NCBI GenBank assembly: GCA_023700845.1
Contig: JAMPYD010000001.1
Span: forward strand, 1-50,845
Reading direction: 5' to 3'
Source of the DNA: Elusimicrobiota bacterium
GTDB lineage: Bacteria > Elusimicrobiota > Elusimicrobia > UBA1565 > UBA9628
DNA: 50,845 nt
Position numbers and translations under genes: made by a program. The notes below the pieces were generated by a model that saw nothing but the letters and a program-made list of their open reading frames with translations, was not told the DNA's origin and made no database searches. Positions 14,505 to 34,659 of the stretch are shown here, one piece after another; the stretch's first letter is position 1; every line of letters starts with the position of its first letter.

Positions 14505-14547
14505 TTCTGGAGAGGTGGGTGAGCGGCTGAAACCGACGGTTTGCTAA
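14505..14547 (+). repeat. attL: 43-nt exact direct repeat, 5' half of tRNA-Ser
   Basis: ttctggagaggtgggtgagcggctgaaaccgacggtttgctaa is identical to 34556-34598. Confidence 0.9.
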
Positions 14548-14556
14548 TCTCTCCGA
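14509..14556 (+). pseudogene. tRNA-Ser(GCT) remnant: positions 1-39 joined directly to an acceptor 3'-strand-like tctctccga
   Basis: The remnant is identical to the intact tRNA from the 5' end into the anticodon loop (..TTGCTAA). The next 9 nt match the tRNA 3' end, cctctccga, at 8 of 9 positions. It therefore looks like the tRNA with its anticodon 3' stem, variable arm and T arm deleted. Confidence 0.7.
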
Positions 14557-14729: not shown

Positions 14730-14760
14730 CCCTCGTCGGCAACGGCGGGGGCTTTTTTTT
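14730..14760 (+). terminator. rho-independent terminator
   Basis: ccctcgtcg-GCAA-cggcggggg forms a 9-bp stem (two G-U pairs) with a GNRA loop, followed by c and T8. Confidence 0.55.
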
Positions 14761-14840: not shown

Positions 14841-15845
14841 ATGGCAACTGAAGCACAAGTGAAGGCGCTCCGCGATCACACCGACAAGGCACTGGCCGTC
14901 TACCAGAAGGACTTGGTCAAGCGCTCGCAGTGGGGCGAGATCACGTTCGAGAAGGCCGAGGCCGATCTCGTGCGCGCCCAGGAACTCCTCACCTACCTCA
15001 AGGAGCTTCCGCTGGACGTGCTGCCCGACGGCGTCATCAACAGCACCAACACGGCCGTCCAACAACTGATCCCGATCCTCACCAGGATCGACACCTTCAC
15101 GCTGAACACCGGCAACCCCGCCGCGCAGCGTGACGACATCGCGACCCAGTTTCACGGCCAGGTCGACTCCGTTTACAATACCGTCGGCGTCTGGATTCCG
15201 TTCTTGGCCTACAAGAAGGGAGACATCGCCGAGAACGTCGGCAGGCTGAGCCAAGCCGTCGCCGAAGCGAAGGCCACTCTGGAGGAGGCCAAGCAGACCA
15301 CCGAGGCCAAGAAGATCGAGATCGACTCCATCGTCGCCGCCGCCAGGGCCGCGTCGGCGTCTGCTGGGGCCGCCGTCTTCACCGAGGACTTCTTGAAGGA
15401 GTCTAGTACCCAGGAAAAGCTGGCCAAGAATTGGCTCATAGCCGCCGGTGTCATAGGCGTGCTCGGAATCGTAGCGGCAAGCGCCATGTGGTTGGTCGCC
15501 TACAAATCGCAGACCCTGGAGACATCTCAACTCGTGCAGGTCATCGCGGCCAAGCTCGTGATCTTGAGCATCCTGATCGGCGCGGCCTCCTGGTGTGGCG
15601 GCATCTACAAGGCCCTACGCCACCAGACCAGCATGAACAAGCACCGCGCCTTGAGCCTGCGAACGCTCCAAGCGTTCGTTAAGGCCGGAAGCGACGACCA
15701 AACGAAGAACGCGGTCCTCATGGAGGCTTGCCGCGCGGTCTTCTTGGGCGGCAACACCGGCTACCTCGACGGCAAAGGCGGCGGGATGGACGAGTCGAGC
15801 CTGAAGGTCATCGAGATCGCCAAGACCTTGAGCGGGAAATCCTAA
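14841..15845 (+). CDS. hypothetical 2-TM membrane protein (helical N-terminal region of about 195 aa, two TM helices, C-terminal tail)
   Basis: 334 aa. RBS gagagga precedes the ATG. TM helices are NWLIAAGVIGVLGIVAASAMWLVAY and LVQVIAAKLVILSILIGAASWCGGIY. I recognise no family. Confidence 0.7.
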   Translation: MATEAQVKALRDHTDKALAVYQKDLVKRSQWGEITFEKAEADLVRAQELLTYLKELPLDVLPDGVINSTNTAVQQLIPILTRIDTFTLNTGNPAAQRDDIATQFHGQVDSVYNTVGVWIPFLAYKKGDIAENVGRLSQAVAEAKATLEEAKQTTEAKKIEIDSIVAAARAASASAGAAVFTEDFLKESSTQEKLAKNWLIAAGVIGVLGIVAASAMWLVAYKSQTLETSQLVQVIAAKLVILSILIGAASWCGGIYKALRHQTSMNKHRALSLRTLQAFVKAGSDDQTKNAVLMEACRAVFLGGNTGYLDGKGGGMDESSLKVIEIAKTLSGKS

Positions 15846-15865
15846 CACTGACTGGAGAACAGACC

Positions 15866-16162
15866 ATGGCCAGCTATTTCTACGACAAGCACGTCCCCGA
15901 CGGCGGTGACCCCGCCAATAAGACCGGGACGGCTCCCGGTTTCCGCTTCTGTGTCTGCGAGCAGGACGCCGCGATCGGCATCGAGATGGATATGATTGAG
16001 GAGAGCCGGTCAGCGACCATCAACCCCAAGACGCACTACTCTGCGCTGATCAACATCAAAGAAGCCAAGCAACTTCTCGCTGGTCTCCAACAGGCCATCG
16101 ACCGCGCGGCGAGCAAGACCGGCGGAAAGGACCTCCACGAAGACCGCGTCCGCGATCTCTAA
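15866..16162 (+). CDS. hypothetical small acidic protein (98 aa)
   Basis: The ATG at 15866 is preceded by GGAGAA. The longer track ORF from 15728 overlaps the previous gene. Sequence begins MASYFYDKHVPDGGDP... Confidence 0.5.
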   Translation: MASYFYDKHVPDGGDPANKTGTAPGFRFCVCEQDAAIGIEMDMIEESRSATINPKTHYSALINIKEAKQLLAGLQQAIDRAASKTGGKDLHEDRVRDL

Positions 16163-16167
16163 CTACT

Positions 16168-16473
16168 ATGACGATCTCTGAACTCTACAGGAAGTGCGGC
16201 GTCTTCATCGGCAACACTACGGTCGTGAACCCGATCGGGGCTGACGCCCCACCGTCGATGCGGGCGATGTCCGAGAGCATGGACCGGGAATCCCTCAAGG
16301 ACATCGCATCTTGGGAAGTTCCCGACGAAGCCGCCTCTGACGAAGACCTCACGAAGCTCTTGACTGACGCGAAGGGGCTGGCCGCCAAGGGCCTGGCGCA
16401 GAAAGAACAAGTCTGCTCGACGGTGGCCGATCTCAGGAAGTACCTGAGTGGACACTACCCGGTCTCCGAATGA
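16168..16473 (+). CDS. hypothetical small acidic protein (101 aa)
   Basis: The ORF starts 5 nt after the previous stop. It is rich in Asp and Glu. I recognise no family. Confidence 0.5.
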   Translation: MTISELYRKCGVFIGNTTVVNPIGADAPPSMRAMSESMDRESLKDIASWEVPDEAASDEDLTKLLTDAKGLAAKGLAQKEQVCSTVADLRKYLSGHYPVSE

Positions 16474-17329
16474 GCCCCCGGCTGAAAACGGAATCCATCT
16501 GATCAAGTTCTACACGGGCCAAGGAGCAGGGGGTTTCGAGCGCGTCCGGCAGCCCTATACGGCCAAGGAGTGGGAGAAAATTAGGGGGTCTGCGCTCCGC
16601 CTTCTCCAGGCGCGGCAACGCGACGCCGCCGCCGAACTGTTCGAGGCCATCCCGTTTCAGTTGTATGAAGGGACCAATTTTTTTGGAGACGAGTTCCAGG
16701 TGCTCTACTGCGCCGTAAATCACGAACGATACGTTGAACTATCCGAACTTGCAGGAGACGAGGAGACCTCCGGTTCGATCAGGGCGATCGTGAAAGCTCT
16801 CGATGAGATTGGACATTCCGTAAGGCACGTCGCAGTCGGCGTAGACTCGAACTCCGGCCCAGCCCCAGTCGCACTGCCCGACCCAAAGGTCACCTCGGAC
16901 ACGGTGGCGCGCGCCCTTGCCGACGCTGAGCGGTTGATAAACTCAAACGGCGGCGCCATCAGCGCAGTCGATCGGGTTCACACGGCGCTTCATGGCTACC
17001 TGAGAGAGGTGTGCCGCGACGGTAAAATCGACTTCGCCGACGACGCGGGAACGACCGCCCTATTCGGACTCCTCCGCCAGCATCACCCGGCCCTTTCTGG
17101 GACCATCCCTAGCGGCGAGCCAATCCATCGGTTACTTCGGCCTCTGGCGGGAGTCATCGATACGCTTGACCCAGTGAGAAATACGCGGAGCATGGCTCAT
17201 CCGAACGCGACTTTATTGGGGGAGCCAGAGGCGATGCTGGTTATCAATGCGATCCGCACTCTTTTTCATTACCTCGACAGCAAGCTGAGTGAATCCCGAG
17301 CGAAGAGAACCGGGAAGCTCCCGTTCTAG
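16448..17329 (+). CDS. Abi_C / AbiJ-like HEPN-domain protein
   Basis: 293 aa. The C-terminus reads LDPVRNTRSMAHPNATLLGEPEAMLVINAIRTLFHYL, which fits the Rx4-6H motif and the helical context of the Abi_C (PF14355-type) HEPN domain. The start (GTG at 16448) is uncertain. Confidence 0.72.
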   Translation: MDTTRSPNEPPAENGIHLIKFYTGQGAGGFERVRQPYTAKEWEKIRGSALRLLQARQRDAAAELFEAIPFQLYEGTNFFGDEFQVLYCAVNHERYVELSELAGDEETSGSIRAIVKALDEIGHSVRHVAVGVDSNSGPAPVALPDPKVTSDTVARALADAERLINSNGGAISAVDRVHTALHGYLREVCRDGKIDFADDAGTTALFGLLRQHHPALSGTIPSGEPIHRLLRPLAGVIDTLDPVRNTRSMAHPNATLLGEPEAMLVINAIRTLFHYLDSKLSESRAKRTGKLPF

Positions 17330-18165
17330 TGGCAGAACCTGGAATGACCGACAAGAAGCCCGTGGCCAAAGCCCCTACGAAGATCGCTTTGGATTTGCTG
17401 GCCAATGCGAAGGACTCTCTGGCTCACGCGGTCTCCCATCTAACGGACGGTGGCGACCCTTCGGCCGGTCGGTGGAAGATCGCCATCAGGGAAGTAGCCC
17501 ACGTCATCGAACTTCTATTGAAAGAGAGGTTGAGGCGAGCCCACCCGGCCTTGATTTGGGTGAAGGTCGATGAGTTCCCGTCCTTAGATGCGCGCACGGT
17601 GGGCACCGCCCTCGCGGCCTCGCGGCTCGCCAAAATGTGCGGCATCTCGTTTCCCAAGGATGCCTTGGATACTCTTGACGCCTGTCGAAAGCAGCGGAAT
17701 AAAATTGAGCACTACGAGTTTCACGTCGAAGAGGCGGAAGCGCGTGGGATCGTGGGGCGGATGTTGGCGTTCATCTTTACTTTCTCCAGGCTCCACCTTG
17801 AGATCGACCTTGAAGCGGAGTTCCGCAAAGACAAAAGCTGGGAATCCCTTATCGACCTGGTCGAATTTCGAGAAGCACAGGCCAAGGCGATCGCGAAGAA
17901 GTTTTCCGAAGATGGAACAGAATCCACAGACTGTGAGTCTTGCGGTGAGCCGACTTTCGACATCGGGGCTGAACAATGTGAATTATGCGGCCACCGAGAT
18001 GAACTCGTTGACTGCGATCAGTGCGGGCAATCAATCTGGGCCTCGGATTCGGAATCCTTCGACGGCCCCGAGTCTGAAGAAACATCAGTAGTGTGCGGTA
18101 GCTGTGTTAGGAAGGCAGAGGCTGCTGATTTCCTGTATGACCAGTGGAAGGACCAGCAAGGATGA
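17329..18165 (+). CDS. HEPN-domain protein with C-terminal zinc-ribbon region
   Basis: 278 aa. It has LDACRKQRNKIEHYEF (Rx4H) in a helical N-terminal domain. The C-terminus has four Cys pairs: CESCG, CELCG, CDQCG and CGSC. The start is either the GTG at 17329 overlapping the previous stop or the ATG at 17344. Confidence 0.68.
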   Translation: MAEPGMTDKKPVAKAPTKIALDLLANAKDSLAHAVSHLTDGGDPSAGRWKIAIREVAHVIELLLKERLRRAHPALIWVKVDEFPSLDARTVGTALAASRLAKMCGISFPKDALDTLDACRKQRNKIEHYEFHVEEAEARGIVGRMLAFIFTFSRLHLEIDLEAEFRKDKSWESLIDLVEFREAQAKAIAKKFSEDGTESTDCESCGEPTFDIGAEQCELCGHRDELVDCDQCGQSIWASDSESFDGPESEETSVVCGSCVRKAEAADFLYDQWKDQQG

Positions 18166-18229
18166 AACAACCACGCCTGGATGGCGTACGGGAGCGACAC
18201 AGTAGCTGCCTCCCGCTATAATTTCGACC

Positions 18230-18907
18230 ATGCGAATCTCCCCCGAGGTGTTGAAGGGCCCGAGCCCAGAGGTCGACGACTCCTGGCGCCTTTTCCTCGA
18301 CCCGGCAGAACTCAGGACCAATCTGATCACGGCGTCGATTTACATCGCCGGGTTCGAGACGTTGAAATCGACGATCACCGGGCGCATCAGGGATTTTTTC
18401 TGGACCGGCTGGGACCACAAGACCGGCGACATCGTCAGCGAGAGCTACAACACCAAGGTCCTCGACCTCGATCCGAAGCGCAGGGTCTACGAAGCCTCGC
18501 TCGCCTGGCTGAAGCAGATGTCCGTGATCGACGACGCCGACTTGGCTAAGCTCAAGGTGGTGACGGACCTCCGCAACGAGATGGCCCACAAGATGGTCTC
18601 GATCGCGTCCGAGGGAGTGCCCGCGCACTGCGAGCAACGCCTCGGCGACATGATCCGCTTACTGCACAAGATCGAGGTCTGGTGGATCAGGAACGTGGAG
18701 ATGGAAATCAACCCGGACTTCTGCGACCCCGCCGCCAAGGACGAGGACATGCACCCTGGCAGCGTCATCACGCTCCAGATGATGACGCAGATCGCGCTTG
18801 GCACCGAGGACGAGGCTCGTGAGCCCCTCGCCGAATACATCAAGCGGTATGGCCCAGCCGCGAGCAAGTCGAAATGGCCTGGCACCGACGCGCCTCCAGA
18901 GCTATAA
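18230..18907 (+). CDS. HEPN-domain protein (third in a row)
   Basis: 225 aa. It has LKVVTDLRNEMAHKMV (Rx4H) in helical context. It shows no obvious similarity to the two preceding HEPN proteins outside the motif. Confidence 0.62.
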   Translation: MRISPEVLKGPSPEVDDSWRLFLDPAELRTNLITASIYIAGFETLKSTITGRIRDFFWTGWDHKTGDIVSESYNTKVLDLDPKRRVYEASLAWLKQMSVIDDADLAKLKVVTDLRNEMAHKMVSIASEGVPAHCEQRLGDMIRLLHKIEVWWIRNVEMEINPDFCDPAAKDEDMHPGSVITLQMMTQIALGTEDEAREPLAEYIKRYGPAASKSKWPGTDAPPEL

Positions 18908-18963
18908 TCTGATTGCCCGGCTCACCCGGGCGCGACGGACTTAGAAACTGGCCGCGCTAATGC

Positions 18964-18999
18964 GGGCCGCCTTGATGGTCAAGGCGGCCCGTTTGCTTT
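18964..18999 (+). terminator. rho-independent terminator of the HEPN operon
   Basis: GGGCCGCCTTGA-tgg-TCAAGGCGGCCC forms a 12-bp perfect stem followed by GTTTGCTTT. Confidence 0.65.
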
Positions 19000-19590
19000 A
19001 TGGAGACCCTAATGAACACTCCGATCTCGAATAGAACCACGATCCTCGGTGGCGACGCCCTGCGATGGCCGACACACGATGCACCTGCCCCGGCTGAACC
19101 GGACATGGTGAACTTCCCGGGGGGGGTGGTGCAACATGGAGGGGTGAATCTCATACAGGATACGTCAGAATCGCTGCCGGGCCTATATCCCGCGAGACTG
19201 GGCGCCGATTCACCTGTTCAGATTCACCCCGAACCGGACATGCAATTGTGCGGCATCGAAGCAAGCGCAGCCGACCACGGACCCTCTTCCCCAACTTTTA
19301 GGGAAGCCTCCGGCGGGGTCGAACGCTGGGCAGCGGCCCGGCGGCTGGAGTTCCTTTTGCTCTGGTCGGCTACCGAGTTGTCCGGAAAGGAGATCGCTCG
19401 CTTCTTCGGCCTCTCCGAGCGCCATACACGCCGCCTGCGTGTCGACCTTGGCCTCGAAGACCGCACGACCCTTCGGCGGCTTGATCGGGCAGGTCGACGC
19501 CGCCTTGGGGCATACAAGGCGCTGGCAGGGCTTATGTCGCAGGAGGCGCAGGCGTTGCTGGTGACCGCACAGGCCCGCAGCCGGGCCTAG
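19000..19590 (+). CDS. hypothetical protein with C-terminal HTH (sigma-70 region-4 / LuxR-like)
   Basis: 196 aa. ELSGKEIARFFGLSERHTRRLRVDLG looks like a helix-turn-helix. The N-terminal half has low complexity and the start is uncertain. Confidence 0.45.
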   Translation: METLMNTPISNRTTILGGDALRWPTHDAPAPAEPDMVNFPGGVVQHGGVNLIQDTSESLPGLYPARLGADSPVQIHPEPDMQLCGIEASAADHGPSSPTFREASGGVERWAAARRLEFLLLWSATELSGKEIARFFGLSERHTRRLRVDLGLEDRTTLRRLDRAGRRRLGAYKALAGLMSQEAQALLVTAQARSRA

Positions 19591-19697
19591 AACCAGGCGG
19601 CCAACGCGGGCGCCGAGCGCGGGGGGGCCCGGGCGATCCGCCTCGTTATTTAGAGTTCGATAACATGGATTAAGGTACTCATTGCAACCATCAGCAA

Positions 19698-20627
19698 CTA
19701 CAGGTTGGCGGCCACGATCCGCGCCACCTCCCCGGCCAAGTCCTGCCGGTTGTCATCGTAGACGTTGAGAACGCGAAGGTCGCGATGGCGGGAGAAGCGC
19801 TGGACCTTCCTCACGTCGCCGCCCAGCAGGTCCAGCGCCTCGGTGATGGCCAGATGCCGCACGCCATGCGGTCGGCCGAGGCCAAGGCCCCGGGTCAACC
19901 GGTAGACACTGGTTCCCGTCAGCCTCGCGCCCTTACCGGCCCGATCGAAGTTCGTGAACAGCGGCCCCGGCGCCGTGCCACGCGCCGCGATCCAGGCCGT
20001 GAGCACGCCTGCGGTCTCGTCCGGGAGAGTGAGCGTCATGCGGGTCGTCCGGCCTTTACCCTTGATGGAGAGCGTACCGGCCTCCAGGGCAACGTGGGCT
20101 AGGTCCAGGGACACGACCTCACCCCGGCGCAGCCCAAGGTCGTGCAGCAGCCGTAGGATCGCCAGGTCTCGCCGGGCCTTGCCGTCCCCACACTGTTTCA
20201 GGTCATGTAGTACCTTCTTAAGCGTGCCTCGCGCGGGTCCACGGAGGTCGCGATCGTGCTCGACCTTCAGGTTCTGGACCTCCAAGTTCCAGACTACGAT
20301 CCCGAGTGTGCGCGCCAGCTTCACCATCGCCCTCAACGCCGCCAGGCGCCGGTTGATCGTCGACGCCTGCAAGCCGCGCTCGACCAGGTTAGCCTTATAA
20401 CCCAAGGCCAGCGCGTTTGCGTCGCCCGGCGCTAGGGACAGCAGCCCACGCGCCGCGTCATCAACGTCGCTCGACCGGGTGAAGGTCGAGAAGTCGTTCA
20501 AGTCCTGTCTGTAGGCCCGGATCGTCAGCGCGTTGCGGCCCGAGAGGAACGCCTGGATGAGGGCTGCGATCTTCTGCTTCACAAGCCTCGATGGAATTTG
20601 AGGGTGGACGATGATGACCTTGCTCAT
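19698..20627 (-). CDS. tyrosine recombinase (XerC/D-like), second recombinase of the island
   Basis: 309 aa. It has an N-terminal SAM-like domain (LSGRNALTIRAYRQDLNDF) and catalytic residues in LGLRRGEV (R), HGVRHLAIT (HxxR) and SRHRDLRVLNVYDD (H..Y). Confidence 0.85.
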   Translation of the reverse strand: MSKVIIVHPQIPSRLVKQKIAALIQAFLSGRNALTIRAYRQDLNDFSTFTRSSDVDDAARGLLSLAPGDANALALGYKANLVERGLQASTINRRLAALRAMVKLARTLGIVVWNLEVQNLKVEHDRDLRGPARGTLKKVLHDLKQCGDGKARRDLAILRLLHDLGLRRGEVVSLDLAHVALEAGTLSIKGKGRTTRMTLTLPDETAGVLTAWIAARGTAPGPLFTNFDRAGKGARLTGTSVYRLTRGLGLGRPHGVRHLAITEALDLLGGDVRKVQRFSRHRDLRVLNVYDDNRQDLAGEVARIVAANL

Positions 20628-25240: not shown

Positions 25241-27559
25241 TTAGGAGACGTTTACGGGTACGAGCGTCATCGTGTCGTTGCCGAAGATGTCGATGACCTT
25301 GACGGCCACGGTGTAGCGGCCGGGCTTAGGGTAGACGTGAGCGGCCGAGGTCAGTTCGAGATCACGATCCTGCCGCGTGCGGAAGGACTGCCATTCGTTC
25401 TCGAAGATGTAGGCGCCGGTCCAGCGCTCCTCGAACTCGATGAACTCCTCGCCCGCGACCACGGTGCCGGGAAGCTCGCCCTCGACGCCCATCGTCTTGG
25501 GCATCTTCACGATTTCCTTGCGGCTCTCGTAGTTAAAGTCCACGGCCCAGTAATCCACCCAGTCGGTCCACTTCTTGGTCAGAACATTTCGGGTGACCAC
25601 GCCATTTTTATCCTTGCTGATCTTGATGAGCTTGCCGCCGTCGCAGATGACCTCGCTCTTGCCTTCCTTCAACTCTGCGGCTACAGAGTCGACCAGGCCC
25701 TGCGTGTAGTAGACGGAGAAGTCGGCCAACTCGATGGTGACGCGCCGCTTCTCCGTCTTGTCGTAGCGGGGCGTGGCCTCGATGTAACTCACGTCGTGGA
25801 AGCGCACCTGCCCCTTCTCTACGGCGCGCTTGTCGAAGACCTCAGGCGGGATCGTCTTCGGCGCGATGTCGATGCCCTTCTGCTTGGCCTCTTCCAGCAC
25901 AGCGGGGAACAGACCCATCTCGAACTCGAAGGCGAGGATGTCCGCGCGCGAGGCTCGGCGCTTGCGGCACTCGGTGATGACCTCCTCGACGAAGAGGCGT
26001 CCGACCGGAAGATTGATGGGGCCGACCACGACCAGGCGGCCCGCGTGCTTGCCGTGGAAGAACCCGTTGTTCTCCATCGGCTCGGCCCCGTAGGCGCGGA
26101 GGATCAGGTCGCGGAACTCGTGCTCCTTTTTCGCCAAGGCGTCGGCCTTCTTCTTCGCTGAGAGGCGGCTGGAGACGTTGAGATATGCCTGGCGCTCATA
26201 GCGGCCGAGGTTCAAGACCTCGAACGCGCGGAACGGCTTCCCGCTACTTTTCAATTCGCGCTGCACTCCAATAAGCCGCTTCCGCGCAGTGTGGACACCA
26301 AACTTCCCCAGGTCAGTCGTGATCCACTTCCTTCCAAGTTTCTCTGCGACGGCTGCGGTTGTGCCGGAGCCGCAGAAGAAATCTGCCACCAGGTCGCCCT
26401 CGTTGCTGCTGGCCTTGATAATCCGTTCGAGCAGGCTCTCCGGTTTTTGTGTCGGGTAATCCAGACGCTCAGCCCCAGAGCGGGTCATCCGCACATCTGG
26501 CCAGATCGACTGGCAAGGCTTCCCGGGGCTTTCGTCCAAATACTGCTTGAGATATGGGAAGCCTGTTGACGAAAAGTAGATTCTTTTTTCCTTCAACAAC
26601 CGGTCGATGCCGTCCTGGTCGAAGGCCCAGTGTCTTCCCTTGGGTGGAGAAATTGTTTTTTCTCCGATTTTCCTGGCCGGACCTGTGCCCCCGGCCGTAA
26701 GCGTGTTCGGCCAAAACCGGCGTCCGCTGCCCTCCTCGACCATGCCGAATCGCTCTTCAATATACTCAACGTCGTAGGCCATGTAGATCGGGTTGTAGGT
26801 CCACGAATCTGTTTTTGTGTAGAAGAGGATGTTGTCGTGGACGATCCCGTATTTGTTGGGATCGTTGTGCGCCCCGTGGCGTTGCCAGACAATATCATTG
26901 CGAAAATTATCAAACGAAAAGACTTCATCCATAACCGACCGGACAAGGTGGCTGACGTTCGGACCCATGTGAACGTAGATGCTGCCATCCTTCGCCAAGA
27001 GATCGCGCATCAAAATCAATCGTTCGTAAAGCATCGAAACGAATGAGTCTGCGCCACGCCCCCAAGTATCACGATACGCGATCTGTTCCAGCAGGTTCGG
27101 TTCCTTGTGGAACGTCTCGCCGCCAACTTCTATGTCCATGGAGAAGTCAGCGCCCACGTCGAAGGGCGGGTCGATGTAAATTAGCTTGAGGCCACCCGCC
27201 GACTCAATCTGCTCGCGTAGCGTGCCCGCCCGCAGGGACGACAGAATAAGTTTGTTGTCTCCCCAAATCAACTTGTTCGTCCAGCCGGTGACCTGGCGCC
27301 CGCCACCATCAAGGGCAAGCTCGTCATCCTCATGCTTTTCTTTACGCGGTTCGTCGATATGTTCAAGGGTTTGGAAGGGCAGGACCACGTTAGTGACCTC
27401 ACGCGACTTCCCGTTCCAGACCAACTCGACCTCACGCTTGTCCTCAAACAAGATGAAGCGGTATTTCTCGGGTAGAGGCTTGCCCTCGTTGATGAGTTTG
27501 ACGAGGTCGCGCTTCTCGGCGTCAGTCAACTCGTAGGCGTCGGTCTGGGCTCTGGCCAT
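25241..27559 (-). CDS. mod: Type III-like DNA methyltransferase (Mod, beta-class N6A/N4C MTase) with a long C-terminal extension
   Basis: 772 aa. Motif IV LIYIDPPFDVG precedes motif I DFFCGSGTTAAVAEKLGRKW. The final 300 aa or so are extra and end in a PKD/Ig-like stretch, HVYPKPGRYTVAVKVIDIFGNDTMTLVPVNV. Confidence 0.88.
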   Translation of the reverse strand: MARAQTDAYELTDAEKRDLVKLINEGKPLPEKYRFILFEDKREVELVWNGKSREVTNVVLPFQTLEHIDEPRKEKHEDDELALDGGGRQVTGWTNKLIWGDNKLILSSLRAGTLREQIESAGGLKLIYIDPPFDVGADFSMDIEVGGETFHKEPNLLEQIAYRDTWGRGADSFVSMLYERLILMRDLLAKDGSIYVHMGPNVSHLVRSVMDEVFSFDNFRNDIVWQRHGAHNDPNKYGIVHDNILFYTKTDSWTYNPIYMAYDVEYIEERFGMVEEGSGRRFWPNTLTAGGTGPARKIGEKTISPPKGRHWAFDQDGIDRLLKEKRIYFSSTGFPYLKQYLDESPGKPCQSIWPDVRMTRSGAERLDYPTQKPESLLERIIKASSNEGDLVADFFCGSGTTAAVAEKLGRKWITTDLGKFGVHTARKRLIGVQRELKSSGKPFRAFEVLNLGRYERQAYLNVSSRLSAKKKADALAKKEHEFRDLILRAYGAEPMENNGFFHGKHAGRLVVVGPINLPVGRLFVEEVITECRKRRASRADILAFEFEMGLFPAVLEEAKQKGIDIAPKTIPPEVFDKRAVEKGQVRFHDVSYIEATPRYDKTEKRRVTIELADFSVYYTQGLVDSVAAELKEGKSEVICDGGKLIKISKDKNGVVTRNVLTKKWTDWVDYWAVDFNYESRKEIVKMPKTMGVEGELPGTVVAGEEFIEFEERWTGAYIFENEWQSFRTRQDRDLELTSAAHVYPKPGRYTVAVKVIDIFGNDTMTLVPVNVS

Positions 27560-27561
27560 GG

Positions 27562-30279
27562 TCAGGTGGTCTGGTATTGCTGGAAGCTCGCGGCAAGCGC
27601 GGCGAAGGTCGTCGGCGGGTGCTGGATGAACCCGGCCTGGTCTACGTAAAGGTGCTTGTAGCTAACGCGGCCATTCTCGGCGCTGGCGATGGTGGCATCG
27701 GCGCACCACTGCCCGAGGCGGGCCATCTTCTGCGGCAAGTCCAGTTCCTCGCGGCCCTTAGTCTCGATGATCCAGACCGTGCCGTCGGCCGTGCGGACGA
27801 TGAAGTCGGGGGTGTAGGTCGAGAGGTCGCCGTTCTCGCGGACGTAGTCGAGCTTGAAGCCGACGGCGAAGTAGTTCTTGGCGAAGGCCGCCACGTCCGA
27901 CGCCGCCTCCAGGAACGCGGCGAACGACAACTCGAAGCCGCCGGAGCGCGGCTCGCCGACGGTCTTGCTGAAGATCGACTTCTTCGCAGCCAGGAAGGGC
28001 CGGTGCTCGGTGCGGAAGGGGCGGGTCTGCCGCAACTTGATTGTGTCCTCGATCCGGGTCGTGCCCGTCTCCTGGATCGTCAGCGCGTTCATAGCCGTCT
28101 TGAACGAGTCGTAGAGGACCTTGCCTACCTCAGGCTCGGACAAATTGCGGAGGACGACCGGGTCCTCCAGGTCCACGGGCGACTTCGTAAACAGGTGCTC
28201 GCGGACGAAGGTCTTGACCTTGCCGTAGAGCACGTCGTAGCCGCCGACGAGGCGCAGGTCCTGGAGCAACTGACGGGCGAAGAAGGCGATCACCGACCGG
28301 TAGTCGCCGGGGCCGGAGCCGTCGAGCACGATCGTGTGATGGACCTCGGCGTTGAGCATCGTCTTGAACACGATCTCGCGCGTCTCTTCGGGTGTGAAGG
28401 GCTTGAGCGGCAGCTTCTTGTTGCCGAGGGCCGCCGGGTCCAGGGCGTCGAGGTTCTTGTAGTCTCGATTGTAACGGCGGGTGAGCTTGGGGAGAGGGAT
28501 GTCGAGCTTGTCCAGGTCCTTCTCGGGGTTCTGGGCGTCGACCTCGACTACGAGAGAGTCCTTGCGCGTGGTCCCGGCGCCCATGGGGACGTGCTCGAAG
28601 GTCACGCCCTCGGACTGGATCGACTCGACGAACTCCATGAAGGCGGGCGTGCCCATAACGGAGACTGTCTCGCTGATGTCGGTCCCGAAATACATGCGGC
28701 GCAGACCTCGGCCAAGCGTCTGCTCAGGGAGGATGTTGCTCTGCGCGGCATAGGCGCGCAAGCCGACGATCGTGGTCACGTTGCGAACGTCCCAGCCTTC
28801 TTTCAGGACCAGGACGGAGACGATCGCCTTGCACGGGCTCTTCAAGCTGTCGATCGCGTTAGCGGCCTCACGGAGAACTTCCAACTCCTCCTTGCTCTTG
28901 CCCGAGGCGGCCTCGGAGATTTCGCCGTTGTTCTTCGTGTGGATCACGAGGACACCGTCCTTCAACTCGGGACAAATCTTCTGGAGGTATTCACCGACAT
29001 CGTCGCAGTTCTTCGTGTCGTCGACCATGACGAAGAGCACAGCCTTCTTCCCCAGCTTCTCGTGCTCGGCGTAGCTCTTCTTCCATTCCTCGACGCCGAG
29101 CGCGAGGTAGTCGGCGTAGCGCTCGCTGAAGACCGCGCTCTTGCGTTCGGCGAGCTTGGCGCGGCTGGCGGCGTCAGGCAGGATAGGGTGCTTCACGACG
29201 TTCTGGTGGATCGCCTCGACCAGCGGGTAGTCCGACACCGTCTGGACGAAGATGCTGCCGTTGTCGTGGCGGGGCGTGGCCGTCACGTCAAGCTGGAGTG
29301 CGAGGCGGCGATCCTTCTGGAGCATCCGGTTGTGGATGTCCTGGATCGACTTGAACCAGGCCATGCGCTCATCGTGGATGTGGTGCGCCTCGTCGTTGAA
29401 GACGGCGAGTTCGGTCACTTCGCGCACGATCTCACCCAGGTCGGTCTGGCTGTCTCTCGTCTTGCCCACCGGCTTGGCGCCGAACGGCGAGAGGAAGTAA
29501 TCGCGCAGGTCTCCGTCCTCCAGCGACGGCTCGGGCACGTCGCCGAGGTAGACGCGGTGGATGTTCGTCAGGAAGATATTGCCGGTCTCGCGGATGACGC
29601 GCACGTCGTCCTGGATGTGGAGCGTGAACTGAAAATCGTCTCGCCAGTTGCGTCCGTCGTGGCCGTTATCCGGCAGGATGGGATCGTTGAAGAAAATCTT
29701 GAGGCCGTCGAAGTCCGTCCGCAGCCGGTCGAGGACGATGATGTTCGGCGCGATGACGAGGAAGTTTCTCGACAGGTTGGAGTCGGCCTCGTAGACCTTG
29801 TGAAAGTAGCTCCAGGCGATGAGCAGGGACATGACCTTGGTCTTACCTGAACCCGTCGCCATCTTCAGGACGTAGCGCGGCCAGTCCTCGGTGAACATTC
29901 CGGCCGAGACCGCGCCGGAGGCATCGAAGCGCAGGAGATCGAACTTGTCCTTCACGCGCTTCACGTCGTGCAACCATATCACCGTCTCGACCGCCTCGCG
30001 CTGGGCGAAGTAGTAACGGAAGGGCGAGAGCGTTCCATCCTTACCCTCGGTCATGTGCTCGGTGTCGAACCACCACTTCAACAGCGCGATTGACGTGCGC
30101 GATGCGCCCGCGTATCCGGCGGCTCGCCAAGCGTGGACCTCGCGGCGGATGTTGGCCACCAGCGGCGGCAGCAACTTGTCGTATGCAGTCGCGCGCAGCG
30201 TCTCGTCGGCCGGGAACCACCGCTGCTCGGGGATGAGCGGCGCGTAGGGGGACGACGGAAATTCTGGGTGCAACGCCAT
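27562..30279 (-). CDS. res: Type III restriction enzyme Res subunit (SF2 helicase plus PD-(D/E)xK nuclease)
   Basis: 905 aa. Helicase motifs are MATGSGKTKV (I), FNDEAHH (II) and QTLGRGLR (VI). The C-terminal nuclease reads YTPDFIVRTADGTVWIIETKG. Confidence 0.9.
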   Translation of the reverse strand: MALHPEFPSSPYAPLIPEQRWFPADETLRATAYDKLLPPLVANIRREVHAWRAAGYAGASRTSIALLKWWFDTEHMTEGKDGTLSPFRYYFAQREAVETVIWLHDVKRVKDKFDLLRFDASGAVSAGMFTEDWPRYVLKMATGSGKTKVMSLLIAWSYFHKVYEADSNLSRNFLVIAPNIIVLDRLRTDFDGLKIFFNDPILPDNGHDGRNWRDDFQFTLHIQDDVRVIRETGNIFLTNIHRVYLGDVPEPSLEDGDLRDYFLSPFGAKPVGKTRDSQTDLGEIVREVTELAVFNDEAHHIHDERMAWFKSIQDIHNRMLQKDRRLALQLDVTATPRHDNGSIFVQTVSDYPLVEAIHQNVVKHPILPDAASRAKLAERKSAVFSERYADYLALGVEEWKKSYAEHEKLGKKAVLFVMVDDTKNCDDVGEYLQKICPELKDGVLVIHTKNNGEISEAASGKSKEELEVLREAANAIDSLKSPCKAIVSVLVLKEGWDVRNVTTIVGLRAYAAQSNILPEQTLGRGLRRMYFGTDISETVSVMGTPAFMEFVESIQSEGVTFEHVPMGAGTTRKDSLVVEVDAQNPEKDLDKLDIPLPKLTRRYNRDYKNLDALDPAALGNKKLPLKPFTPEETREIVFKTMLNAEVHHTIVLDGSGPGDYRSVIAFFARQLLQDLRLVGGYDVLYGKVKTFVREHLFTKSPVDLEDPVVLRNLSEPEVGKVLYDSFKTAMNALTIQETGTTRIEDTIKLRQTRPFRTEHRPFLAAKKSIFSKTVGEPRSGGFELSFAAFLEAASDVAAFAKNYFAVGFKLDYVRENGDLSTYTPDFIVRTADGTVWIIETKGREELDLPQKMARLGQWCADATIASAENGRVSYKHLYVDQAGFIQHPPTTFAALAASFQQYQTT

Positions 30280-32857: not shown

Positions 32858-33247
32858 ATGGACTCAAAATGCACTAACTCCGGTTCGTCACAAGACCCCT
32901 CGACGCCCGCGCCGGTCGCCACCGATAACGCCGTGTCCGTGTTAGCTACGACGCTTCAGAGCGGGACCTACCGACTGGTCGTTCGCGATGGGAAGATCGT
33001 GGCGCTGTCCGAGGGGGGGTGCAACTCGGTGTACATGACCATGGAGCAGATCGCCGAGGAGTTTCCGGTCTCGTACTTCTGGGTTTCCCGGAACTGGCTC
33101 GTGACCCTGCGCCTGCCCGTCTACAAGCTGGGCAAGAAGACCAACATCTTCAAGCGCGAAGAACTCTACGCCGCTATCGAGCGGACGCGGGTCCTTCCTG
33201 GCCGCCCCGTGGGCAGAGCGAAGAAGACGATCGGGGTGCTCTCATGA
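32858..33247 (+). CDS. xis: excisionase-like HTH protein (Xis)
   Basis: The C-terminus MTMEQIAEEFPVSYFWVSRNWLVTLRLPVYKLGKKTNIFKREELYAAIE fits excisionase/MerR-type HTH proteins. The stop overlaps the int ATG (ATGA). The start is uncertain (32858 or 33035). The track start at 32591 overlaps the RHH gene on the other strand. Confidence 0.55.
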   Translation: MDSKCTNSGSSQDPSTPAPVATDNAVSVLATTLQSGTYRLVVRDGKIVALSEGGCNSVYMTMEQIAEEFPVSYFWVSRNWLVTLRLPVYKLGKKTNIFKREELYAAIERTRVLPGRPVGRAKKTIGVLS

Positions 33248-34386
33248 GCAACCAAAAGGGTCACCCGCTCAAAGCCGTACGTCTCGATCGAGAAAGAATC
33301 CGACTGGACTTCACCCACGGAGGACGCCGCGTGCGCGGCGAGGTTAGGGCCGAGGCCCTGGCCGCGCTGATTCTAGGGGAAATCGATTCCGACTCGAATC
33401 TGGTTTTCGGGGAGGCGCCGATCACGCTGACCGACTTCGTGAACCAGGTCTACATCCCGTTCGACGCGACGCCGCGCCTCCTGAACGTGCGCTCATTGAA
33501 GGCGGAGGTCGACATCGTGAAACCCTGGCTGACCAAGCTCGGGAAAATGATGCTGCATGAAATTCAGGGCAAGGACGCTGAACGCTGCAAGGATGAGTGG
33601 ATCACGCAGGGCCTGGCTGGAAACACGATCAAGCGGCGTTGGGACGCACTCGGCCGCGTATTAGACTGTGGGAAAACCAAGGGACGGATCAAAAACCGGA
33701 TTCTCGGTAAGCCTAGCGGCCTGGCGCTCGCGAACAGAAGCGGCATCTGGCTCAAGCTGTCCGAGATCGATCCTATCCTAGCCGAGTGCGAGAAAGTGCA
33801 TCGAAAGCTCCGGCCCCTGATCGAGTTCCTGATCTTGACCGGTGCTCGGATCGGAGAGGCTCAGCTACTGGTCAACGGAGACATCCGCAACGGTACACTG
33901 TGGCTGCCCACGGAGAAGCAGGGTTGCCCGCCCAGGGACGCGACGAGGCCCTTGGACATCAAGAGCCTCGGGCCCAGGTTCGCCGCGCTTCTGCCGAAGT
34001 TGAAGCCGCACCCTGTCAGCGGCCTCTACTTCTACGCCAACGACGCGAAGCTGACTGCCATCACCGAAAGCTACGCGATCAGCTTGTTCCAGAAGGCGTT
34101 GGCCGCCGTCGGGAGGATCGACTTCACCTTACATGACTGCCGGGGCACGTTCGCCACGCACAGGGCGATGGTAGTGAACAGCTTCCGTCAGCTTCAGGCT
34201 GAACTCGGTCATGGAAATCAAAAATCCATCACCGCATACTTGGCCCGTGCAAGACAATTCGATCGACGCGAGTCGATCTTCTACTCCCCGCCTCGTCAAC
34301 GGCGCAGTCCCGGGCGCCCACAAATCGTGCCTCCCGGTCTAACCGTGAACGAGGGGCACGTCCCGCCGCCGCCGTTGCATAGCTAA
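33244..34386 (+). CDS. int: tyrosine integrase
   Basis: 380 aa from the ATG at 33244. Catalytic residues are in LILTGARIGEA (R), LHDCRGTFATH (HxxR) and LGHGNQKSITAYL (H..Y). It ends 173 nt before the tRNA. Confidence 0.88.
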   Translation: MSNQKGHPLKAVRLDRERIRLDFTHGGRRVRGEVRAEALAALILGEIDSDSNLVFGEAPITLTDFVNQVYIPFDATPRLLNVRSLKAEVDIVKPWLTKLGKMMLHEIQGKDAERCKDEWITQGLAGNTIKRRWDALGRVLDCGKTKGRIKNRILGKPSGLALANRSGIWLKLSEIDPILAECEKVHRKLRPLIEFLILTGARIGEAQLLVNGDIRNGTLWLPTEKQGCPPRDATRPLDIKSLGPRFAALLPKLKPHPVSGLYFYANDAKLTAITESYAISLFQKALAAVGRIDFTLHDCRGTFATHRAMVVNSFRQLQAELGHGNQKSITAYLARARQFDRRESIFYSPPRQRRSPGRPQIVPPGLTVNEGHVPPPPLHS

Positions 34387-34507: not shown

Positions 34508-34537
34508 TTGCGCGGGGGGGAAATAAAAAGTTACGAT
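34508..34537 (+). promoter_or_regulatory. candidate element-borne promoter for the restored tRNA-Ser (TTGCGC-18-TACGAT)
   Basis: The -10 ends 22 nt before the tRNA 5' end and lies in island DNA just inside attR. Confidence 0.3.
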
Positions 34538-34555
34538 GTTCTCAGCAGTTTCCCT

Positions 34556-34598
34556 TTCTGGAGAGGTGGGTGAGCGGCTGAAACCGACGGTTTGCTAA
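34556..34598 (+). repeat. attR: 43-nt exact direct repeat, 5' half of tRNA-Ser
   Basis: Identical to 14505-14547. Confidence 0.9.
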
Positions 34599-34649: not shown

Positions 34650-34659
34650 AATTTCGCGC

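What the first reader, a model, noticed from the sequence alone, without database searches (positions are those of the whole stretch)
14841..18999. Six-gene cargo operon with a 2-TM membrane protein, two small acidic proteins and three different HEPN (Rx4-6H) proteins: candidate undescribed defence or abortive-infection system
Seen:
- Six co-directional genes lie between two intrinsic terminators (14730-14760 and 18964-18999), with junctions from -26 to +64 nt.
- Gene 1 (334 aa) has a helical N-terminal region of about 195 aa and two hydrophobic helices (NWLIAAGVIGVLGIVAASAMWLVAY and LVQVIAAKLVILSILIGAASWCGGIY).
- Genes 2 and 3 encode acidic proteins of about 100 aa.
- Genes 4, 5 and 6 each carry one R-N-x(3-5)-H motif in a helical context: DPVRNTRSMAHPN, CRKQRNKIEHYE (followed by four Cys pairs) and TDLRNEMAHKM. 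They otherwise look unrelated to one another.

Known: Rx4-6H is the catalytic signature of HEPN RNases (Abi_C/AbiJ, AbiD/F, RnlA/LsoA, Csm6/Csx1, Cas13). These enzymes act as dimers and are usually held in check by a partner such as an MNT or an antitoxin.

Inference: three distinct HEPN genes in tandem, with a membrane protein and no MNT partner, match no named system that I know. One plausible logic is a membrane sensor or pore plus HEPN RNase effectors that may form heteromers, with the acidic proteins acting as inhibitors. The location at the attL cargo edge of an island that also carries an R-M system fits a defence role.
Basis: partly seen in the sequence, partly recalled or inferred. 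Interest (0 to 1): 0.85.

Follow-up and report, generated by a model that had tools for sequence, protein, structure and literature searches.

The report
Array of separate HEPN defence genes
The six genes are real and all three carry the conserved HEPN RNase motif (only two match HEPN profiles significantly), but they look like a string of separately mobile, mostly single-gene abortive-infection-type genes at the edge of a tRNA-Ser island, not one new six-gene system; two are already catalogued kinds, and the membrane protein belongs to an uncatalogued family that often follows restriction-modification operons.

Summary
Six co-directional genes under purifying selection lie between two terminators, at the attL edge of a ~20-kb tRNA-Ser island that also carries a type III R-M system.

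Gene identities:
- g4 has a Pfam Abi_C (AbiJ-type HEPN) domain above threshold.
- g5 is a DUF3644-type HEPN with two zinc ribbons. It matches PADLOC PDC-S64 and is related to HEC-08, an experimentally validated single-gene defence.
- g6 belongs to a small family with an invariant RNxxxH motif. Its HEPN profile hits are all sub-threshold.
- g1 is a 2-TM protein from an uncatalogued family.

The "one six-gene system" reading fails its own co-occurrence test:
- 78 genomes with g1 relatives carry none of the other five genes.
- 80 metagenome loci plus five intermediate relatives of g5 (60-84% identity) lack g4 and g6.
- Six g6 contexts, two g2 contexts and several g4 contexts also lack the partners.
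- One near-identical copy joins g4-g6 to different upstream defence genes.

The genes occur together only in copies that are at least 90% identical.

Best reading: a cargo array of independent Abi-type modules. The most novel lead is g1, which repeatedly sits as the last gene of type I/IIG R-M operons. Interest is modest.

The parts
14505..14548 (.). attL-side direct repeat: a copy of the 5' half of tRNA-Ser(GCT). It marks the left end of the ~20-kb island.
   Evidence: An exact repeat of at least 43 bp matches 34556-34599 inside the tRNA gene. GC drops from 0.70-0.78 to about 0.60 between the repeats.
14730..14760 (+). Intrinsic-terminator-like hairpin plus T-run, upstream of g1
   Evidence: 9-bp stem with 7 GC pairs, followed by the tail CTTTTTTTTG.
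14841..15845 (+). g1: 334-aa protein with two TM helices and a cytoplasmic helical N-terminal domain. It belongs to an uncatalogued family that is often the last gene of type I/IIG R-M operons.
   Evidence: ORF. No Pfam, PADLOC, NCBIfam or PHROGs hit. About 100 full-length homologues. AlphaFold model with pLDDT 79. 21 of 78 loci have R-M genes within 8 kb, several immediately upstream. dN/dS 0.12.
15866..16162 (+). g2: 98-aa soluble protein of unknown function, from a small family of ~80-115-aa proteins
   Evidence: 30 representatives at 36-51% identity. dN/dS 0.18. Relatives occur without g1 or g3.
16168..16473 (+). g3: 101-aa soluble protein of unknown function, seen only in near-identical copies of this element
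   Evidence: dN/dS 0.37. No family hit. No relatives in viral contigs.
16448..17329 (+). g4: AbiJ-type HEPN protein with a C-terminal Abi_C domain (residues 208-276, motif RNTRSMAH at 244-251) and an unrecognised N-terminal domain
   Evidence: Pfam Abi_C at 43.6 bits against a cut-off of 24. NCBI names it 'abortive infection family protein'. The C-terminal half is 36-48% identical to Abi family proteins on 448 plasmids, while the N-terminal half has no match. dN/dS 0.07.
17329..18165 (+). g5: DUF3644/EC042_2821-type HEPN protein (Ex3K at 61-65, RNKIEH at 123-128) with two C-terminal zinc ribbons. It belongs to the PADLOC PDC-S64 family and is related to HEC-08.
   Evidence: PADLOC PDC-S64 3e-28, DUF3644 4e-9, HEC-08 2e-8. 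40 of 40 family members hit PDC-S64. Invariant residues. The zinc-ribbon region matches eL37. Literature.
18162..18221 (+). 19-codon remnant of a 78-aa gene that is translationally coupled to g5 in close relatives. The deletion scar is at 18187/18188.
   Evidence: A 191-bp deletion relative to L001, L002, L004 and L085.
18194..18222 (+). Sigma-70-like promoter match (GCGACA-17-TATAAT) ending 8 nt before the g6 start codon. There is no Shine-Dalgarno sequence, so g6 may have its own leaderless transcript.
   Evidence: The TATAAT box is conserved in L001. This is a consensus match only.
18230..18907 (+). g6: 225-aa helical protein from a small family with invariant R115-N116-x3-H120. It is a probable divergent HEPN.
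   Evidence: Family alignment. AlphaFold model with pLDDT 89 places the motif at the end of helix 102-120. Sub-threshold hits to DUF4145 (8 of 33 members), HepT-like (4 of 33) and HEPN_Cthe2314. No Foldseek hit.
18962..18999 (+). Terminator-like hairpin (14-bp stem) closing the array
   Evidence: Similarity to L001 ends here.

Best explanation
**What the locus is.** It is the cargo end of a ~20-kb element integrated at tRNA-Ser. It carries an array of independent, mostly single-gene, abortive-infection-type modules that happen to be co-oriented and possibly co-transcribed. It is not one six-gene machine.

**Shown:**
- g4 is an AbiJ-type (Abi_C) HEPN protein with a private N-terminal domain.
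- g5 is a DUF3644-type HEPN protein with two zinc ribbons. It belongs to PADLOC family PDC-S64 and is related to HEC-08.
- g6 carries a family-invariant RNxxxH motif at the end of a helix.
- g1 is a two-TM protein whose relatives repeatedly trail R-M operons.
- Each of g1, g2, g4, g5 and g6 occurs elsewhere without the others.

**Inferred mechanism:**
- Each HEPN protein acts alone as a homodimeric, metal-independent RNase.
- Its non-catalytic part (the g4 N-terminal domain, the g5 zinc ribbons) keeps it inactive until it senses an invader component.
- RNA cleavage then arrests the infected cell or clears the invader.
- g1 probably acts as a separate membrane-permeabilising suicide effector. 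Its cytoplasmic helical domain would be the sensor, in the way PrrC-like genes back up R-M systems.
- The roles of g2 and g3 are unknown.
For: **Co-occurrence test**
- 78 genome loci with g1 relatives (25-73% identity) contain no g2-g6 within 8 kb and have no conserved downstream neighbour.
- Of 80 metagenome loci with g5 relatives, only the 95%-identical copy has g4, and there is no conserved neighbour.
- g5 relatives at 84%, 70% and 60% identity sit next to unrelated genes.
- g6 relatives at 26-73% identity sit in six different contexts without g4 or g5. These include a CBASS island, a Hachiman plus type III R-M island, and plasmids.
- g2 relatives lack g1 and g3.
- g4 relatives on plasmids are solo or paired with a paralogue.

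**Module shuffling**
- In L001 a 93-97% identical g4-g5-78aa-g6 block follows a PDC-S06 ATPase and a PD-T4-6-like kinase instead of g1-g3.
- dS differs about ten-fold between genes, from 0.05 to 0.46.

**Identities**
- Pfam Abi_C.
- PADLOC PDC-S64, DUF3644 and HEC-08.
- HEC-08 is a single gene whose defence is lost on mutation of the Rx4-6H histidine. DUF3644 is the EC042_2821 HEPN family, which is fused to zinc ribbons and occurs in R-M operons.

**Other**
- A possible own promoter lies directly before g6.
- The window lost the g5-coupled 78-aa gene, yet g5 kept every invariant residue.
Against: - The six genes are co-directional and tightly spaced between two terminators, which is what an operon looks like.
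- The g4-g5-(78aa)-g6 order is kept in at least four samples, at dS up to 0.46.
- g3 could not be tested beyond near-identical copies.
- Many comparison contigs are short. Only 37 of 80 g5 loci have at least 1 kb on both sides.
- tblastn at E<=0.01 would miss partners that have diverged beyond sequence recognition.
- The HEPN fold of g6 is not confirmed by Foldseek or by any significant profile match.
- No function has been tested experimentally for any gene here. The defence role rests on homology and context.
Confidence: 0.72

Rival explanations
1. **One integrated six- or seven-gene system.** g1 would be a membrane sensor or pore. g4, g5 and g6 would be cooperating or heteromeric HEPN RNase effectors. 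g2 and g3 would be inhibitors.
For: - The six genes are co-oriented between two terminators with short junctions.
- All six are under purifying selection.
- The full order g1 to g6 recurs in L002 and L003.
Against: - Co-occurrence exists only among copies that are at least 90% identical.
- It is absent in 78 g1 loci, 85 g5 loci, 6 g6 contexts, 2 g2 contexts and the g4 plasmid contexts.
- L001 has g4-g6 without g1-g3.
- g5's family is catalogued as single-gene, and its relative HEC-08 protects on its own.
- g2 and g3 are barely acidic.
Confidence: 0.06
2. **A smaller functional unit.** The g4-g5-78aa-g6 block would be a lineage-specific composite of three HEPN RNases that broaden or back up each other's specificity. 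It would be co-regulated and selected as a block. g1-g3 would be separate.
For: - The block is syntenic in the window, L001, L002, L004 and L085.
- In L001 it moved as a unit to a different upstream context.
- Tandem Abi_C paralogues also occur on C. necator pHG1.
- A g6 relative sits directly upstream of an AbiJ_NTD5-TIR gene in L167.
Against: - Linkage is already lost at 84% identity for g5 (L171) and at 73% for g6 (L165).
- The window deleted the 78-aa member without loss of the other genes.
- g6 may have its own promoter.
- Clustering of unrelated defence genes is the norm in defence islands (established knowledge; for HEPN genes in R-M operons).
Confidence: 0.12
3. **Addiction modules.** The genes would be toxin-like modules that stabilise the integrated island by killing cells that lose it. 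Any anti-phage effect would be incidental.
For: - The genes lie at the edge of a mobile island.
- HEPN domains are classic toxin domains.
- In L002 the cluster persists next to the tRNA after the rest of the island is gone.
Against: - No antitoxin-like partner is evident. There is no MNT. The 78-aa gene coupled to g5 was lost without inactivating g5.
- Relatives of g1, g5 and g6 concentrate next to R-M, CBASS, Hachiman and other defence genes rather than at element ends.
- The g5 relative HEC-08 has measured anti-phage activity.
Confidence: 0.08

Closest known systems
HEC-08 and PADLOC candidate PDC-S64 (DUF3644/EC042_2821-type HEPN with C-terminal zinc ribbons; Payne et al., bioRxiv 10.1101/2024.01.29.577857)
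   Same: - g5 has the same architecture: an N-terminal DUF3644-type HEPN with Ex3K and Rx4H, followed by C-terminal CxxC zinc ribbons.
- It makes significant profile hits (PDC-S64 3e-28, HEC-08 2e-8). All 40 sampled family members hit PDC-S64.
- It occurs as a single gene in variable defence-rich neighbourhoods.
   Different: - The match covers only about two thirds of the PDC-S64 model, and the HEC-08 score is modest.
- The host phylum is different (Elusimicrobiota MAG).
- The current Pfam-A DUF3644 model does not reach E<=1 for g5.
- No phenotype has been measured.
AbiJ / Pfam Abi_C (PF14355) HEPN abortive-infection proteins (Anantharaman et al. 2013, PMC3710099)
   Same: - g4 carries a C-terminal Abi_C domain above Pfam's threshold, with the R-N-x5-H motif.
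- It has the usual layout of a variable N-terminal domain followed by a C-terminal HEPN.
- It lies next to an R-M-bearing element.
   Different: - The N-terminal ~200 residues match none of AbiJ-NTD1 to NTD5 or any other family.
- The PADLOC AbiJ model scores only E=0.008.
Ishtar single-gene anti-conjugation HEPN proteins (DUF4145 or DUF3644 N-terminal HEPN; bioRxiv 10.64898/2026.07.06.735840)
   Same: - They are monogenic HEPN (DUF3644/DUF4145-type) defence genes with patchy distribution near other defences.
- g5 is DUF3644-type. The best sub-threshold hits of g6 are to DUF4145.
   Different: - Ishtar proteins have a beta/alpha C-terminal domain, not zinc ribbons.
- No sequence comparison with Ishtar proteins could be made here.
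HepT-MntA (type VII HEPN-MNT toxin-antitoxin)
   Same: g6 gives weak HepT-like hits around its RNxxxH motif.
   Different: - The cluster contains no MNT or nucleotidyltransferase gene.
- All hits are far below the curated cut-offs (14-17 bits against 23.5-60).
- Foldseek places HepT only at E=5.4.
R-M-linked suicide genes such as PrrC/RloC, and two-TM suicide effectors such as SLATT-type or CBASS membrane effectors
   Same: - g1 relatives sit as the terminal gene of type I/IIG R-M operons, as PrrC does.
- g1 has a two-TM hairpin joined to a cytoplasmic domain, as membrane Abi effectors do.
   Different: - g1 has no sequence or structural match to PrrC, SLATT or any PADLOC or Pfam model.
- It has no ATPase or HEPN domain.
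- Membrane disruption is an inference only.

Membership tests
HEPN superfamily (g4) | Significant profile match to a HEPN-clan family, with an Rx4-6H motif and a polar residue after R | tested here: met
   Pfam Abi_C at 43.6 bits against a cut-off of 24, residues 208-276. The motif R244-N-x5-H251 lies inside the match.
HEPN superfamily (g5) | Significant profile match to a HEPN family, Rx4-6H motif, and upstream Ex3[KR] motif | tested here: met
   PADLOC DUF3644 3.8e-9, HEC-08 2.1e-8, PDC-S64 3.1e-28. R123, N124 and H128 are invariant. The E61-x3-K65 motif is conserved: K65 is invariant and E61 is present in at least 90% of sequences. DUF3644 was classed as HEPN by Anantharaman et al. 2013. 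Current Pfam-A gave no DUF3644 hit at E<=1.
HEPN superfamily (g6) | Significant profile or fold match to a HEPN family | tested here: inconclusive
   Only sub-threshold hits were found, all to HEPN-clan families: DUF4145 in 8 of 33 members (best 8.5e-4), HepT-like in 4 of 33 (best 1.5e-4), and NCBIfam HepT 0.003. hhalign against the g5 family aligns the motifs at E 0.036 but with probability 1.4%. Foldseek against PDB and BFVD found nothing with E<0.4.
HEPN superfamily (g6) | Family-invariant Rx4-6H motif, polar residue after R, located at the end of a core helix | tested here: met
   R115, N116 and H120 are invariant in 33 sequences. In the pLDDT-89 model they lie at the C-terminal end of helix 102-120, ahead of long helix 134-160. 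This matches the published position at the end of helix 3.
HEPN superfamily (all three) | Metal-independent RNase activity that depends on R and H | not testable with these tools
   Needs biochemistry or toxicity assays with R-to-A and H-to-A mutants.
Lactococcal AbiJ system as modelled in PADLOC | Full-length match to the AbiJ model, or one of the recognised AbiJ N-terminal domains (NTD1-5) | tested here: not met
   The PADLOC AbiJ model scores E=0.0076 over the C-terminal 53 residues only. No AbiJ_NTD family is found in Pfam at E<=1.
PDC-S64 / HEC-08 single-gene defence | Profile match, HEPN plus zinc-ribbon architecture, and occurrence as a single gene | tested here: met
   There is no conserved neighbour in 80 loci.
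PDC-S64 / HEC-08 single-gene defence | Protection against phage that is lost when the motif histidine is mutated | not testable with these tools
   Shown only for HEC-08 itself.
Type VII HEPN-MNT toxin-antitoxin | An adjacent minimal nucleotidyltransferase partner | tested here: not met
   None of the six proteins has a nucleotidyltransferase family hit.
Multi-gene defence system (operational definition) | The component genes co-occur across divergent genomes | tested here: not met
   The genes are together only in copies at least 90% identical.
Known two-TM or membrane Abi effectors (SLATT, CBASS/Pycsar TM effectors and others) for g1 | Profile or fold match to the family | tested here: not met
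   There is no Pfam, PADLOC, NCBIfam or PHROGs hit for g1. No PADLOC hit is consistent across 38 family members. Foldseek against PDB returns only generic long-helix matches with E>=0.08.

The most novel reading that the evidence does not exclude
g1 may define a new, widespread family of single-gene suicide effectors coupled to R-M systems.
- **Family size and reach:** more than 100 members in Proteobacteria, Bdellovibrionota, Verrucomicrobiota, Bacteroidota, Nitrospirota and others.
- **Proposed mechanism:** a cytoplasmic four-helix-bundle sensor joined by a ~100-residue helix to a two-TM hairpin and a conserved cytoplasmic tail. When restriction fails, it would collapse the membrane. This would be a membrane-acting counterpart of PrrC.
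- **Related lead:** g6 would then be a further uncatalogued HEPN family of defence islands.
- **Still open:** a weaker, lineage-specific cooperation among g4, g5, the 78-aa gene and g6 is also not excluded.
Probability: 0.3. Interest if true: 0.55.

Novelty: new member of a known kind. Interest (0 to 1): 0.3.

Why it matters
If the array reading is right, the locus is a typical defence islet on an integrative element. It is useful mainly as a source of candidates.
- It extends the HEC-08/PDC-S64 and AbiJ-type HEPN families into Elusimicrobiota.
- It flags two uncatalogued families that are cheap to test singly: the R-M-trailing two-TM protein g1 and the small HEPN-like g6.

It also illustrates a caution for genome scans. 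Tight co-orientation between two terminators is not evidence of one system when each gene travels alone elsewhere.

Tried and rejected
- **PDB sequence searches.** Profile searches with the g1, g5 and g6 family alignments and a phmmer search with g4 gave nothing except eL37-type zinc ribbons for the g5 C-terminus.
- **Foldseek.** The g6 model against PDB and BFVD, and the g1 model against PDB, gave no match with E<0.07. The fold of g6 therefore stays unconfirmed and g1 has no structural analogue.
- **hhalign of the g6 family against the g5 family.** It aligns the motifs but is not significant.
- **Viral-contig scans.** g2 and g3 gave nothing. g1 gave only 3 loci.
- **g6 partner (AF_1680 protein).** An AF_1680-family protein lies upstream of g6 in L165 and L166. 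I rejected it as a conserved partner because it is absent from the other g6 contexts and from the window.
- **g6 partner (L167 476-aa gene).** The 476-aa gene upstream of g6 in L167 is the C-terminal part of a transposon-split HamB, not a partner.
- **78-aa gene as antitoxin of g5.** I rejected this because the window deleted it while g5 keeps every invariant residue, and more distant g5 relatives lack it.
- **g2 and g3 as acidic inhibitors or DNA mimics.** Net charges are only -3 and -5 and there are no family hits.
- **g4 N-terminal half.** It has no match in plasmids.
- **Rfam.** It finds no RNA family in the region.

Full report

Yes. The window is a complete 50,845-bp contig of an Elusimicrobiota MAG (locus tags NDJ72_). 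ORF listing gives six + strand genes:

| gene | coordinates | length |
|---|---|---|
| g1 | 14841-15845 | 334 aa |
| g2 | 15866-16162 | 98 aa |
| g3 | 16168-16473 | 101 aa |
| g4 | 16448-17329 | 293 aa |
| g5 | 17329-18165 | 278 aa |
| g6 | 18230-18907 | 225 aa |

- Terminator-like hairpins bracket the genes, at 14730-14751 plus a T-run and at 18962-18992.
- Only g1 has hydrophobic segments, at about residues 194-257.
- The three motifs are exactly as reported: RNTRSMAH in g4 at 244-251 (Rx6H), RNKIEH in g5 at 123-128, and RNEMAH in g6 at 115-120. g5 also has four CxxC pairs.
- Against near-identical copies from other samples, all six genes show purifying selection, with dN/dS 0.05-0.37. All six, including the two small ones, are therefore real genes.
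- The island context also holds. A 44-bp direct repeat (14505-14548 = 34556-34599) duplicates the 5' half of tRNA-Ser(GCT).
- GC is about 0.60 between the repeats against 0.70-0.78 outside.
- The interior encodes a type III R-M system (Mod 25241-27559, Res 27562-30279), two tyrosine recombinases and a Rep-like protein.

Two corrections:
- g2 and g3 are only mildly acidic (pI 5.5 and 4.8, net charge -3 and -5). They are no more acidic than g5 or g6.
- The window lacks a seventh gene. Close relatives carry a 78-aa ORF whose start overlaps the g5 stop codon. A 191-bp deletion at 18187/18188 has reduced it here to a 19-codon remnant.

**2. What is each gene?**

*g4*
- It has a Pfam Abi_C domain (AbiJ-type HEPN) at 43.6 bits against a gathering score of 24, covering residues 208-276 and the motif. 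NCBI names it "abortive infection family protein".
- Its C-terminal half is 36-48% identical to proteins with that annotation on 448 plasmids. Its N-terminal ~140 residues match nothing.
- This fits the published picture of AbiJ-family HEPN domains behind interchangeable N-terminal domains (PMC3710099).

*g5*
- It hits PADLOC models PDC-S64 (3e-28), DUF3644 (4e-9) and HEC-08 (2e-8). Of 40 sampled family members, 40 hit PDC-S64, 34 hit DUF3644 and 16 hit HEC-08.
- The family alignment shows invariant R123, N124 and H128, a conserved E61-x3-K65 motif (K65 invariant, E61 in at least 90% of sequences), and two invariant CxxC pairs. These are the two HEPN hallmarks plus a zinc ribbon. The ribbon matches eL37 in PDB.
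- DUF3644 is the EC042_2821 HEPN family, noted for zinc-ribbon fusions and for occurring in R-M operons.
- HEC-08 is described as a DUF3644 HEPN with C-terminal zinc fingers. It is a single gene, and its anti-phage activity was abolished by mutating the motif histidine. PDC models come from genes embedded in BREX, DISARM or type I R-M systems (bioRxiv 10.1101/2024.01.29.577857).

*g6*
- It belongs to a family of only 33 detectable members, with invariant R115, N116 and H120.
- A confident AlphaFold model (pLDDT 89, pTM 0.77) is helical. It places the motif at the C-terminal end of helix 102-120, before a long helix. The HEPN motif is reported to sit at this position, the end of helix 3.
- All profile hits are sub-threshold, although every one is to a HEPN family: DUF4145 in 8 of 33 members, HepT-like in 4 of 33, HEPN_Cthe2314, NCBIfam HepT, and Csm6.
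- Foldseek against PDB and BFVD and a PDB profile search find nothing. I call g6 a probable divergent HEPN, not a proven one.

*g1*
- It has no hit in Pfam, PADLOC, NCBIfam or PHROGs.
- It has about 100 full-length homologues with strongly conserved blocks: WIPFLAYQKGD, ASASAGAAVFTxDF before TM1, and WCGRxYKAL-H-N-HRALSLRTFQAF after TM2.
- The model (pLDDT 79) shows an N-terminal four-helix bundle and a ~100-residue helix that runs into TM1. TM2 then continues into the conserved helix. There is no structural analogue in PDB.
- With two TM helices and basic residues after TM2, both soluble parts are probably cytoplasmic (inference).

*g2 and g3*
- Neither has a family hit. g2 has about 30 representative relatives, all small proteins.

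**3. Do the six genes belong together?**

| gene | what was compared | result |
|---|---|---|
| g1 | 78 loci from GTDB species genomes, 25-73% identity, 8 kb each side | tblastn (E<=0.01) finds none of g2-g6 or the 78-aa gene; downstream neighbour differs in length, strand and spacing |
| g5 | 80 metagenome loci | only the 95%-identical L085 has g4 and the 78-aa gene; no conserved neighbour family |
| g5 | intermediate relative, 84% identity (L171) | lies between an ankyrin-caspase gene and split OLD-type ATPase/TOPRIM genes |
| g5 | intermediate relative, 70% identity | lies next to an RQC/HRDC gene |
| g5 | intermediate relative, 60% identity | lies among unrelated small genes |
| g6 | 71-73% identity | sits in CBASS islands, behind an AF_1680-family gene |
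| g6 | 46% identity | sits between a transposon-split Hachiman HamB and an AbiJ_NTD5-TIR gene, next to type III R-M |
| g6 | 44% identity | sits alone among metabolic genes |
| g6 | Salinivibrio and Hymenobacter plasmids | never with g4 or g5 |
| g2 | about 50% identity, two unrelated contexts | no g1 or g3 |
| g4 | plasmid relatives | solo, or paired with a paralogue |

- In L001, a 93-97% identical g4-g5-78aa-g6 block follows a PDC-S06 ATPase and a PD-T4-6/mad6-like kinase instead of g1-g3.
- Synonymous divergence between copies differs about ten-fold among the genes, from 0.05 to 0.46. This indicates a mosaic history.
- The six genes are therefore found together only in copies of the same element that are at least 90% identical. 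These are L002-L006 and L085, from groundwater and other metagenomes.

**4. Best explanation**

The locus is a cargo array of separable Abi-type modules on a tRNA-Ser integrative element.

The mechanism below is inferred from family knowledge, not shown here:
- Each HEPN protein works alone as a homodimeric, metal-independent RNase.
- Its non-catalytic part (the g4 N-terminal domain, the g5 zinc ribbons) restrains it until an invader component is sensed.

g1 is the most interesting piece. In 21 of 78 loci, type I or IIG R-M genes lie within 8 kb. In several loci (L015, L022, L046, L070, L016, L017, L028) g1 directly follows hsdS, hsdR or the methyltransferase on the same strand. This is the position typical of R-M-linked suicide genes such as PrrC. 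I infer that g1 is a membrane-acting suicide effector. I did not compute a genome-wide background for the R-M association, so the enrichment is a judgement.

A perfect TATAAT box lies 8 nt before the g6 start codon, with no Shine-Dalgarno sequence, and is conserved in L001. This hints that g6 has its own, possibly leaderless, transcript. It is a consensus match only.

**5. What remains against this reading**

- The operon-like layout is real.
- The g4-g5-(78aa)-g6 order has survived substantial synonymous divergence and moved as a block in L001.
- Tandem Abi_C genes on pHG1 and a g6 relative next to an AbiJ_NTD5-TIR gene show that HEPN/Abi genes often sit side by side. That could reflect cooperation rather than island crowding.
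- g3 could not be tested.
- Many comparison contigs are short.
- Partners that have diverged beyond tblastn detection would be missed.

I therefore give the sub-block model 0.12 and the full six-gene model 0.06.

**6. Comparison with known systems, and novelty**

- g5 meets the membership tests for the PDC-S64/HEC-08 group that can be run here.
- g4 is a member of the Abi_C HEPN family, but not of lactococcal AbiJ as PADLOC models it.
- g6 passes the motif test but not the profile or fold test.
- The cluster is not a HEPN-MNT toxin-antitoxin module, because no nucleotidyltransferase is present.
- g1 matches no known membrane effector family.
- A recent preprint adds single-gene DUF3644/DUF4145 HEPN proteins ("Ishtar") that clear conjugative plasmids. 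The targets of g5 and g6 may therefore be plasmids as much as phages.

Overall this is a new member of a known kind: a defence islet of single-gene HEPN-type modules. It contains two uncatalogued candidate families, g1 and g6, that are worth testing. Interest is modest (0.3).

Noticed in passing
window 18162-18230; L001 6514-6750; L002 3684-3920; L004 2081-2317; L085 1680-1802: Close relatives carry a 78-aa gene whose ATG overlaps the g5 stop codon (ATGA). The window has lost 191 bp of it, leaving a 19-codon remnant. The protein has no family hit.
   Followed up: partly
window 14505-14548 and 34556-34650: The island is inserted on the 5' side of tRNA-Ser(GCT). The duplicated segment is the 5' half of the tRNA, and the integrase (33019-34386) lies next to the intact gene. 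The functional tRNA must therefore take its 5' half and its promoter from the element, which is less usual than insertion at the 3' end.
   Followed up: partly
L002 4253-4429 (Logan SRR32696707): In this sample g6 is truncated at the position equivalent to window 18537. About 100 bp later the sequence continues into the region upstream of tRNA-Ser and the tRNA 5' half (window 34508-34584). The gene array therefore persists next to the tRNA after the rest of the island (R-M system, recombinases) is gone.
   Followed up: partly
L001 296-4836 (Logan SRR22388005): The g4-g6 block here follows a 921-aa ABC-type ATPase that matches PADLOC PDC-S06 (5e-172) and a 590-aa protein kinase that matches mad6 and PD-T4-6. 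This is a different set of candidate defence genes in the same slot.
   Followed up: partly
L015, L022, L046, L070, L016, L017, L028 and others (genome loci with g1 relatives): g1-family genes lie directly downstream of, and co-directional with, hsdS, hsdR or Eco57I-type methyltransferase genes. Cultured carriers include Aquabacterium lacunae KMB7, Caenimonas sedimenti HX-9-20, Amphibiibacter pelophylacis SL12-8 and Alcanivorax nanhaiticus.
   Followed up: partly
L078, L082, L084, L072, L179 (Piscirickettsia salmonis plasmids): Some distant relatives match only the C-terminal part of g1: the two TM helices plus the conserved tail, about residues 175-333. This part may be a module that combines with different N-terminal domains.
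   Followed up: no
L187 4668-6324 (Cupriavidus necator H16 plasmid pHG1): Two Abi_C-type 'abortive infection family protein' paralogues lie in tandem. Each is 44-48% identical to the C-terminal half of g4.
   Followed up: no
L165 4840-7654 and L166 5624-7642: The g6 relatives at 71-73% identity are each preceded by a ~450-aa protein of Pfam family AF_1680. In L165 a CAP12/PCTIR TIR-domain gene lies between the two. Both loci are in CBASS-containing islands. Whether AF_1680 and the g6 family form a pair in that lineage is open.
   Followed up: partly
L171 2626-3443: The 84%-identical g5 relative has a frameshift near its C-terminus, between the third and fourth CxxC pairs, so it may be decaying.
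   Followed up: no
window 19000-20627: Directly after the array lie a 196-aa ORF with no family hit and a second tyrosine recombinase (19698-20627, - strand). This could mark a nested or formerly separate element that carried the array.
   Followed up: no
window 39758-50818 (- strand) and other long ORFs in the 70-78% GC flanks: Very long overlapping ORFs on both strands, for example 3686 aa, appear in the high-GC flanks. Many are probably artefacts of GC-rich sequence lacking stop codons.
   Followed up: no
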